DNA from: Octopus sinensis
Taxonomy: Eukaryota
Direction of reading: 5' to 3'
Assembly (NCBI RefSeq): GCF_006345805.1
Contig: NC_043003.1
Span: forward strand, 99,448,001 to 99,512,000
DNA: 64,000 bases
Shown: piece after piece, positions 40,900 through 41,403 of the stretch
Numbering within the stretch: the stretch's first letter is position 1
How the letters are laid out: every line of letters begins with the position of its first letter
Position numbers: made by a program

Positions 40900-40975
<76 letters not shown>

Positions 40976-41403
40976 AGTGAATGGAATAAATGGAGTTGAA
41001 CGAAGATTGTACAGAATACCTTTTATTACATTCTACACATGTTTCGAAGGCCACAAATTTTCAAATTCTGTTTAAATAAGGGTACCATATTGCGGCTTTC
41101 TCTTCAGGAAGAGAAAGCCGCAATATGGTACCCTTATTTAAACAGAATTTGAAAATTTGTGGCCTTCGAAACATGTGTAGAATGTAATAAAAGGTATTCT
41201 GTACAATCTTCGTTCAACTCCATTTATTCCATTCACTAATAATATTAAACTTCAATTATCCGCTCCAACGCACGGTTGCAACACCAAATGGTCTTATCTC
41301 CAACCGTGCTGTTTTCCGCTGTGATTTTTTCTACCCAGGTATCGGTTAAACCTTTGAATAATCTGTTACAAGAAAATTCATCTTTCTATTTCAACAAATA
41401 TAT

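What the first reader, a model, noticed from the sequence alone, without database searches (positions are those of the whole stretch)
40968..41400. 278-bp perfect palindrome folded at the hammerhead core
The arms are 138 bp with no mismatch and a 2-nt spacer. The symmetry axis falls on C3-U4 of CUGAAGA, so only the minus strand has a complete ribozyme. The short arm ends at the same internal AATAAT site as in the 23.7-kb copy, and in both the spacer reads in the short arm's sense. This fits a repeatable mechanism: the second target end primes at that AT-rich site and two cDNAs join by microhomology (here TTC/GAA). This copy would come from uncleaved RNA and the 23.7-kb copy from cleaved RNA (inference). 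Perfect palindromes this long are usually unstable, so it is young or an assembly artefact.
Basis: partly seen in the sequence, partly recalled or inferred. Interest (0 to 1): 0.8.

Follow-up and report, generated by a model that had tools for sequence, protein, structure and literature searches.

The report
Head-to-head Penelope-like element palindrome
The tail end of a ribozyme-bearing Penelope-like retrotransposon sits in a TA microsatellite as two mirror-image copies joined head to head, a known habit of these elements that is here unusually perfect, with the joint inside the ribozyme.

Summary
The palindrome is real in the sequence. Its arms are 40968-41105 and 41108-41245, 138 nt each, 100% complementary, with a 2-nt spacer. 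Twenty shuffles gave at most 11 nt. The axis lies inside a hammerhead core heptamer that is whole only on the minus strand.

A sibling at 23699-23978 has the same build, and its fold falls exactly on the predicted ribozyme cleavage site. Both short arms end 66 nt after that site.

I read the object as the 3'-terminal piece of a Penelope-like element (PLE). A degenerate relative next door (41510-43930) encodes a Hydra-clade-like RT/GIY-YIG protein and carries the same ribozyme. It also has an inverted partner and sits in (TA)n.

Head-to-head inverted copies, palindromes at the junction, (TA)n targeting and ribozymes are all published PLE traits. A purified PLE protein cleaves and extends both DNA strands in vitro.

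This is a new member of a known kind. The fold on the cleavage site is a modest new lead. An assembly artefact is unlikely but was not tested.

The parts
40859..40974 (.). Left flanking microsatellite, (ATAC)n then (TA)n; the presumed target.
   Evidence: TRF rows; sequence.
40968..41105 (-). Short arm. It is an inverted copy (sense on the minus strand) running from inside the ribozyme core to an internal AU-rich site.
   Evidence: 138 nt, 100%; alignments.
41106..41107 (-). 2-nt spacer. Read on the minus strand it supplies the first two letters of the core heptamer.
41034..41107 (-). Type-I hammerhead motif on the minus strand. It has the core heptamer; a helix II with 9 of 10 pairs closed by G10.1-C11.1 and a large loop; GAAA; a 2-bp helix III with a 4-nt loop; and U-A before the predicted cleavage at 41034|41033.
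   Evidence: Own descriptor, (4 hits in the window against 0 in 200 shuffles); sequence. Not found by Rfam.
41108..41245 (+). Inner part of the long arm, the mirror of the short arm. It holds the same ribozyme sequence minus the start of the core. Predicted cleavage site at 41179|41180.
41246..41397 (+). 152-nt 3' extension present only in the long arm.
41267..41313 (+). AC-rich stem-loop inside the 3' extension. It is conserved in the 23.7-kb copy.
   Evidence: z = -2.46 and -3.31 for the two copies' 3' regions.
41398..41509 (.). (TA)n between this element and the next insertion.
23699..23763 (-). Short arm of the sibling copy. The 1-nt spacer at 23764, read on the minus strand, is the first base after the predicted cleavage site.
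23765..23978 (+). Long arm of the sibling copy. TA arrays flank the element at 23571-23701 and 23982-24049.
41510..42013 (-). Inverted partner copy of a larger related element. It abuts the (TA)n and has lost the ribozyme core through one internal deletion.
   Evidence: 479 of 508 aligned bases identical to the direct copy, 5 indels.
42014..43930 (+). Direct copy of the larger related element, 5'-truncated. A (TA)n array follows at 43939-44079.
42023..43159 (+). Degenerate RT/GIY-YIG coding region of that element. It is one broken gene, split into at least four stop-free pieces of 39, 55, 72 and 174 aa in more than one frame. Exact numbers of stops and frameshifts were not counted.
   Evidence: (GIY-YIG E=0.27).
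43657..43734 (+). Full type-I hammerhead of the related element, with both strands of helix I present.

Best explanation
The object is a 5'-truncated insertion of the 3'-terminal, ribozyme-bearing part of a Penelope-like retrotransposon, from a family near the Hydra clade, or of a non-coding derivative of one. It is inserted in a (TA)n microsatellite as an inverted copy joined head to head to a direct copy.

Shown:
- the anatomy of the palindrome;
- the kinship with a neighbouring degenerate PLE;
- the recurrence of the same build.

Inferred mechanism:
1. The element's GIY-YIG nuclease cut both strands of the TA array, and both 3' ends primed cDNA on element RNA. One cDNA started at the normal 3' site. 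The other started about 150 nt upstream, at an internal AU-rich site.
2. Both cDNAs ran to the 5' end of the RNA.
3. The short-arm cDNA reached the last base, then switched onto the 3' end of the long-arm cDNA and copied it. This made one continuous strand across the joint and a spacer that reads in the short arm's sense.

[quoted passage not shown] In the 23.7-kb copy that end is the ribozyme cleavage site. In the 41-kb copy it is a point inside the core, and I have no explanation for why there. The perfect arms mean a recent insertion.
For: Anatomy.

Ribozyme: my descriptor gave 4 hits in the window against 0 in 200 shuffles, and the 41-kb hit is on the minus strand only. Helix II differs from the relative's by one double (compensatory) change and two compatible single changes (my reading).

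PLE kinship:
- The neighbour at 42014-43930 shares the ribozyme and downstream sequence.
- Its 174-aa ORF has 537 relatives at E<=0.001.
- Two long relatives match the RT region of the window's own PLE ORF, at E=2e-4 and 6e-6.
- 6 of 7 aligned relatives carry a CxCX5C linker. Those six have no cysteines between GIY and YIG. Both are named as Hydra-clade marks in PMC8557442 (section 11 read).

Recurrence:
- 3 of 3 copies of this family lie between TA arrays. TA arrays cover about 3.6% of the window (my hand sum rows).
- 3 of 3 copies have an inverted partner whose outer end lies 149-152 nt short of the direct copy's end.
- 4 of 5 HHR-bearing elements in the window are head-to-head. The fifth, at 10.8 kb, is not.

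Literature:
- An inverted 5'-truncated copy at the 5' end, and (TA)n targets: PMC8557442 (passages).
- Palindromes at the inverted junction: PMC3846280 (passages).
- A PLE protein cleaves and extends both strands, and reverse transcription initiates internally at two sites: PMC11167929 (parts 1-2 read).

Youth: the older palindrome at 49 kb has 88.7% arm identity and the neighbour's arms 94.3%. Arms therefore do diverge in this genome.
Against: - Rfam detects no hammerhead in any of these loci. My first, stricter descriptor also missed the 41-kb motif.
- The PLE link of the neighbour's ORF is indirect. Pfam GIY-YIG scores only E=0.27 on it. Only 1 of 10 long relatives reaches GIY-YIG at E<=0.001. 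The word-indexed search for longer relatives found none. tblastn against the window's PLE gave E=0.066 at best.
- The 41-kb unit itself has no coding capacity and no full-length partner in the window.
- In vitro, the anole PLE used mainly uncleaved RNA, and no reads ended at the ribozyme site (PMC11167929). Its two initiation sites lie 30-40 nt apart, not about 150.
- Why both cDNAs would stop inside the core in the 41-kb copy is unexplained.
- The sample is two palindromes and one looser relative. No reads were available to check the assembly.
Confidence: 0.6

Rival explanations
1. Self-priming (snap-back). A single cDNA folds back at its 3' end and copies itself. The growing strand is then captured by the other TA end at an AT-rich site. 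This is the reading that Arkhipova et al. 2013 offered for PLE palindromes at inverted junctions.
For: PMC3846280 (passages) interprets such palindromes as self-priming. In the relative at 43.6 kb, 5 of 10 positions either side of the same axis are already complementary (my reading). A native partial palindrome could therefore favour a fold there.
Against: The palindromes are perfect right up to a 1-2 nt spacer, which is too tight for an intramolecular hairpin primer. If the long-arm cDNA folded back, the spacer should read in the long arm's sense. In 2 of 2 copies it reads in the short arm's sense. If the short-arm cDNA folded back, the arms would be equal and the 152-nt extension would be missing.
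Confidence: 0.17
2. Assembly or sequencing artefact: a chimeric fold-back read, or a mis-join within TA repeats.
For: The arms are 100% identical. TA arrays on both sides are hard to assemble. PMC8557442 (passage) notes that PLE tandem/inverted structures often cause assembly problems.
Against: The same build occurs at three other places in the window, with arms at 97%, 94% and 89% identity, and these cannot all be artefacts. The palindrome is internal, with different unique sequence beyond each flank. The arms are unequal and the short one ends at the same site as in the sibling.
Confidence: 0.08
3. A DNA-level event after insertion. A replication fold-back would have duplicated part of a simple insertion. 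The 23.7-kb form would then be a central deletion of a longer palindrome.
For: Long palindromes are known to suffer central deletions (recalled, no call). Removing about 72 nt from each arm would turn the 41-kb form into the 23.7-kb form.
Against: Such a deletion would have to end on the exact cleavage-site base in both arms. The inverted arm abuts the TA target in 3 of 3 family members, with the same offset of about 150 nt. That points to an event coupled to integration.
Confidence: 0.08
4. A foldback or MITE-type DNA transposon that targets TA.
For: It has inverted repeats and TA-rich flanks.
Against: The inverted repeat is not terminal. The left end pairs with an internal site, and the right 152 nt have no partner. 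The sequence is homologous to the 3' part of an RT/GIY-YIG element.
Confidence: 0.02

Closest known systems
Complex head-to-head (inverted plus direct) insertions of Penelope-like elements, as described in PMC8557442, PMC3846280 and PMC11167929
   Same: An inverted 5'-truncated copy sits next to the direct copy. There is a palindrome at the inverted junction. The unit carries a hammerhead motif. Insertion is into (TA)n. The two copies have different 3' ends.
   Different: No ORF and no tandem pseudo-LTR at this locus. The arms are perfect over 138 nt with only a 2-nt spacer. The offset between the two 3' ends is about 150 nt, not the published 30-40 bp 'tail'. The fold lies inside the ribozyme or, in the sibling, exactly at its cleavage site.
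Hydra clade of C-terminal-EN PLEs (PMC8557442, section 11)
   Same: Canonical hammerhead and (TA)n insertion. Relatives of the neighbour's ORF have the CxCX5C linker and lack the CC of CCHH.
   Different: The copy in the window is degenerate and has itself lost the linker cysteines. No phylogeny was made. The 41-kb unit is only 84% identical to it over 108 alignable bases, with many indels.
Twin priming of LINE-1
   Same: It works alike. The second target end primes internally on the RNA and gives an inverted 5' segment joined to a direct 3' segment.
   Different: The enzyme family is different. In LINE-1 the two segments usually cover different parts of the RNA. Here both reach the same 5' point, which gives a true palindrome.
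Metazoan non-LTR retrozymes (PMC7229834, passages; bioRxiv 10.64898/2026.07.22.740005, abstract and passages)
   Same: Small non-coding units with type-I hammerheads that have a short palindromic helix III. They are related to PLE pseudo-LTRs.
   Different: Retrozymes are defined as tandem head-to-tail repeats that yield circular RNA. Here there is no tandem array, and the copies are head to head.

Membership tests
Type-I hammerhead ribozyme | Conserved core: CUGANGA, GAAA, and U-H before the cleavage site | tested here: met
   Present on the minus strand at 41107-41034. The plus-strand mirror lacks the start of the heptamer.
Type-I hammerhead ribozyme | Helix II closed by G10.1-C11.1 | tested here: met
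   9 of 10 pairs with one non-canonical pair. There is one compensatory and two compatible changes against the relative at 43.6 kb (my reading).
Type-I hammerhead ribozyme | Short helix III with a small palindromic loop, the metazoan type that acts as a dimer (PMC4209133) | tested here: met
   A 2-bp stem with a 4-nt loop. The 8-nt stretch is self-complementary if two G-U pairs are allowed (my reading).
Type-I hammerhead ribozyme | Helix I formed by the sequences 5' of the core and 3' of the cleavage site | tested here: inconclusive
   In this copy the 5' strand is the mirrored arm, giving only 3 contiguous pairs. The predicted fold is the long hairpin. The relative at 43657-43734 has a proper helix I.
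Type-I hammerhead ribozyme | Match to a curated covariance model (Rfam hammerhead families) | tested here: not met
   No hammerhead match. The relative's intact motif is missed as well, probably because of the roughly 40-nt helix II loop.
Type-I hammerhead ribozyme | Self-cleavage | not testable with these tools
   No RNA data. The only indirect hint is the sibling's fold at the predicted site.
Penelope-like element insertion | RT with a GIY-YIG endonuclease in one ORF | tested here: inconclusive
   None in the 41-kb unit. The related neighbour has a degenerate ORF (Pfam GIY-YIG E=0.27). The relatives of that ORF align to PLE RT motifs and GIY-YIG.
Penelope-like element insertion | Inverted 5'-truncated copy adjacent to the direct copy | tested here: met
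Penelope-like element insertion | Pseudo-LTR formed by a partial tandem | tested here: not met
   No direct repeat of the unit at this locus.
Penelope-like element insertion | Microsatellite, (TA)n, target bias | tested here: met
   3 of 3 family copies lie between TA arrays.
Hydra clade of PLEs | CxCX5C linker, and no CCHH cysteines inside GIY-YIG | tested here: inconclusive
   Seen in 6 of 7 aligned relatives. Absent from the window's own degenerate ORF and from its closest relative. No tree was built.
Metazoan retrozyme | Head-to-tail tandem units, each with a hammerhead | tested here: not met
   TRF and repeat searches show no tandem of the unit.

The most novel reading that the evidence does not exclude
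In PLE head-to-head insertions, perfect palindromes arise when both target-primed cDNAs run to the very end of the RNA. Their fold points would then be a genomic record of template 5' ends.

On this reading the 23.7-kb copy is in vivo evidence that ribozyme-cleaved RNA is used as a template for insertion. The 41-kb copy points to a second, discrete 5' end inside the ribozyme core.

A genome-wide count of fold points could then show what the PLE hammerhead is for. PMC8557442 calls that function unclear. The in vitro work in PMC11167929 could not settle it: uncleaved RNA was the dominant substrate, and no reads ended at the site.
Probability: 0.3. Interest if true: 0.55.

Novelty: new member of a known kind. 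Interest (0 to 1): 0.3.

Why it matters
PLEs are the least understood class of retrotransposons. How their tandem and inverted structures arise, and what their hammerheads do, are open questions in the papers I read.

This locus adds nothing new in kind. It does offer two clean, near-spacerless junctions, one of them exactly at the predicted cleavage site. That suggests a cheap descriptive test: tabulate fold points across a genome that is rich in such copies.

There is also a practical warning. The palindrome draws strong but false miRNA-precursor matches (82.8 bits, E=2e-18, below the gathering score).

Tried and rejected
- Rfam at gathering score on the whole window, and at E<=10 on 40900-41700 and 43600-43780: no hammerhead. 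The top matches are generic hairpin hits to miRNA families, all below their gathering scores. I rejected these as products of the palindrome.
- My first ribozyme descriptor required 4 uninterrupted helix II pairs. It gave 3 hits against 0.08 expected, but it missed the 41-kb motif. The second descriptor allowed one mismatch.
- A scan of genome contigs (prokaryotes only) with a 26-nt pattern from the 3' stem-loop gave 0 hits.
- blastn of the unit and of the neighbour against the window found no further copies.
- tblastn of the window's PLE ORFs found no coding match in 41-44 kb at E<=0.01 and only E=0.066 with loose settings. The word-indexed protein search for longer relatives found none. The exhaustive search was what linked the ORF to RT/GIY-YIG proteins.
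- MITE/foldback reading: rejected because the repeat is not terminal.
- A TATA-like stretch about 35-40 nt upstream of the core in the relative was considered as a transcription start that might explain the 41-kb fold. The spacing does not fit well and nothing supports it, so I left it as an idea only.
- Five literature searches found no paper that maps inverted-junction positions against the ribozyme cleavage site. The library holds open-access papers only. Supplementary files, which hold the Hydra hammerheads of PMC8557442 and figures S1-S2 of PMC11167929, were closed and may bear on this.

Full report
OBSERVATION

The window has no N.

The repeat finder reports arms 40968-41105 and 41108-41245: 138 nt, 100% complementary, 2 nt apart. 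My own scan agrees. In 20 dinucleotide-preserving shuffles the longest perfect arm with a spacer of 10 nt or less was 11 nt. As single-stranded DNA the 278 nt fold at -161.6 kcal/mol, with z = -39.9 against 200 shuffles.

The right arm continues as unique sequence to about 41397. The whole unit lies between TA arrays at 40859-40974 and 41398-41509.

THE RIBOZYME

On the minus strand, 41107-41034 reads as follows:
- a CUGAAGA heptamer;
- a helix II of 9 pairs in 10, closed by G-C, with a loop of about 40 nt;
- GAAA;
- a 2-bp helix III with a 4-nt loop;
- U-A before the predicted cleavage point.

The two spacer bases are the first two letters of the heptamer. The plus strand therefore has everything but the start of the core.

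This architecture matches the description of metazoan and PLE type-I hammerheads in PMC4209133 (passages read). That paper describes a helix III of 1-2 bp with a small palindromic loop, a conserved G10.1-C11.1 pair and a large helix II.

My descriptor found 4 motifs in the window and none in 200 shuffles.

Results against the ribozyme call:
- Rfam finds no hammerhead at gathering score (0 matches in the window).
- It finds none at E<=10 around the locus (26 matches, none a hammerhead).
- It finds none on the intact relative either (6 matches, none a hammerhead).
- My stricter first descriptor missed this copy.
- In this copy the 5' strand of helix I is the mirrored arm, and the RNA is predicted to form the long hairpin. 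I do not think this particular copy can cleave.

THE SIBLING COPY

blastn finds one close relative at 23765-23978. It is 186 of 213 (87.3%) identical.

It has the same build. Its arms are 23699-23763 and 23765-23829 with a 1-nt spacer, 63 of 65 complementary, and 59 nt are perfect. It also lies between TA arrays.

In the alignments the spacer base, read in the short arm's sense, is the first base after the predicted cleavage site. The long arm starts one base later.

Both short arms end 66 nt after that site, at the same AU-rich stretch. If only the perfect part of the sibling's arm is counted, its figure is 60 nt.

WHAT FAMILY IT IS

A larger relative lies directly to the right, in what looks like the same original TA array:
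- an inverted copy at 41510-42013;
- a direct copy at 42014-43930;
- then (TA)n at 43939-44079.

Its arms are 479 of 508 (94.3%) identical with 5 indels. The direct copy has a full hammerhead at 43657-43734, including helix I. The inverted copy has lost the core through one deletion. Again the inverted copy ends about 150 nt short of the direct copy's end.

Upstream of the ribozyme, the direct copy holds a degenerate coding region at 42023-43159. It is split into at least four pieces.

Direct tests of this coding region were weak:
- Pfam GIY-YIG scores E=0.27.
- tblastn against the window's PLE gave E=0.066.
- The word-indexed search for longer relatives found nothing.

The exhaustive search with the 174-aa piece gave 537 proteins at E<=0.001, 7 of them at E<=1e-10. 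I took 10 of the longest among the 150 listed:
- 1 of 10 has Pfam GIY-YIG at E=2.6e-4, and 9 of 10 have no Pfam match.
- Two of them match the RT motif region of the window's clear PLE ORF, at E=2e-4 and 6e-6.
- In an alignment of 7 relatives, 6 carry a CxCX5C linker followed by a GIY...YIG motif with no cysteines between.

PMC8557442 (section 11 read in full) names exactly these marks for its Hydra clade. It adds that Hydra families have canonical hammerheads and almost all insert into (TA)n.

I therefore file the family as a PLE, probably Hydra-like. The 41-kb and 23.7-kb units are either very short 5'-truncated insertions of a related family or non-coding derivatives of one.

The window also holds four fragments of another PLE type with a CX4CxxC linker. 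They share no DNA similarity with the unit.

HOW COMMON THE BUILD IS HERE

A fourth head-to-head structure from a different hammerhead family lies at 48906-49250 and 49258-49669. It has a 7-nt spacer and equal arms that are 299 of 337 (88.7%) identical, with 7 indels. Its fold is about 260 nt upstream of the ribozyme.

A fifth hammerhead element at 10824-10741 has no inverted partner.

So 4 of 5 hammerhead-bearing elements in the window are head to head. Their folds lie at different distances from the ribozyme.

COMPARISON WITH PRINT

- PMC8557442 (passages) states that PLE insertions often have an inverted 5'-truncated copy at the 5' end and that TA microsatellites are preferred targets.
- PMC3846280 (passages) describes inverted pseudo-LTRs with palindromes at the inverted junction and proposes self-priming.
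- PMC11167929 (parts 1 and 2 read) shows the following for a purified anole PLE protein. It cleaves and extends both DNA strands. It prefers AT-rich DNA. It starts reverse transcription at two internal RNA sites. It does not need ribozyme cleavage. No reads were found that end at the ribozyme site.

The finding is therefore an instance of a published pattern.

MECHANISM (INFERRED)

Two target-primed cDNAs, one from each cut strand, explain four features:
- the unequal arms;
- the common end sites;
- the TA flanks;
- the head-to-head joint.

A spacerless palindrome needs both cDNAs to stop at the same template position. The simplest cause is the 5' end of the RNA.

In both copies the spacer reads in the short arm's sense. 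The chance of matching the expected letters is about 1 in 64 (my estimate). This fits the short-arm cDNA reaching the last base and then copying the long-arm cDNA. It argues against fold-back of the long-arm cDNA.

Why the 41-kb template would end inside the core is unexplained.

AGE

The two copies differ by 12.7%, yet each has perfect or near-perfect arms. Other palindromes in the window have drifted to 89-94% arm identity. Recent insertions from diverged source copies are therefore the simplest reading.

An assembly artefact is unlikely, given the three other instances with diverged arms and the unique flanks. No reads could be checked.

VERDICT

This is a new member of a known kind. Interest is modest and rests on the fold at the cleavage site as a lead to what the ribozyme does.

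No copies outside the window could be examined.

Noticed in passing
48906-49669: A second hammerhead-bearing palindrome from a different family. Its arms, 48906-49250 and 49258-49669, are 88.7% identical with a 7-nt spacer and equal outer ends. The ribozyme motif at 49516-49549(+) has an unpaired base before helix II. Its mirror in the left arm has one substitution in the core.
   Followed up: partly
10741-10824 (minus strand): A well-formed type-I hammerhead motif in a short element between TA-rich and ACAT-type microsatellites. No inverted partner was found.
   Followed up: partly
13456-15715(-), 54508-54907(-), 58954-60664(+), 63405-63998(-): Four fragments of another PLE type (RT plus C-terminal GIY-YIG with a CX4CxxC linker and two cysteines inside GIY-YIG). 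All are broken. Lower bounds from the tblastn pieces are at least 1, 1 and 2 interruptions for the first three. The fourth runs off the end of the window. No ribozyme motif was found beside them with my descriptor.
   Followed up: partly
40859-44079: One TA array appears to have taken two separate PLE insertions side by side, the palindromic unit and the larger element. They are now separated by 112 nt of (TA)n.
   Followed up: yes
41048-41165: The palindrome draws strong false matches to plant miRNA precursor models (best 82.8 bits, E=2e-18, against a gathering score of 94). An automatic annotation with relaxed cut-offs could mislabel it.
   Followed up: yes
29323-29376, inside 28900-29900: A 26-nt near-perfect palindrome with a 2-nt spacer, inside a GC-richer stretch that reads like a decayed DNA-transposon gene.
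   Followed up: no
26982-27536(-): This ORF ends with a zf-RVT match (E=2e-4, below the curated cut-off). It suggests a LINE-type reverse transcriptase remnant.
   Followed up: no
51225-51760: (GAA)34, followed by two copies of a 177-nt tandem unit (88% matches).
   Followed up: no
41267-41313 and 23851-23897 (approx.): A conserved AC-rich stem-loop lies in the 150-nt stretch that only the long arms carry. It recalls the AC-rich stem-loop where the anole PLE starts reverse transcription, but here neither arm ends inside it. The corresponding region of the 43.8-kb relative shows no unusual folding (z = 0.27).
   Followed up: partly
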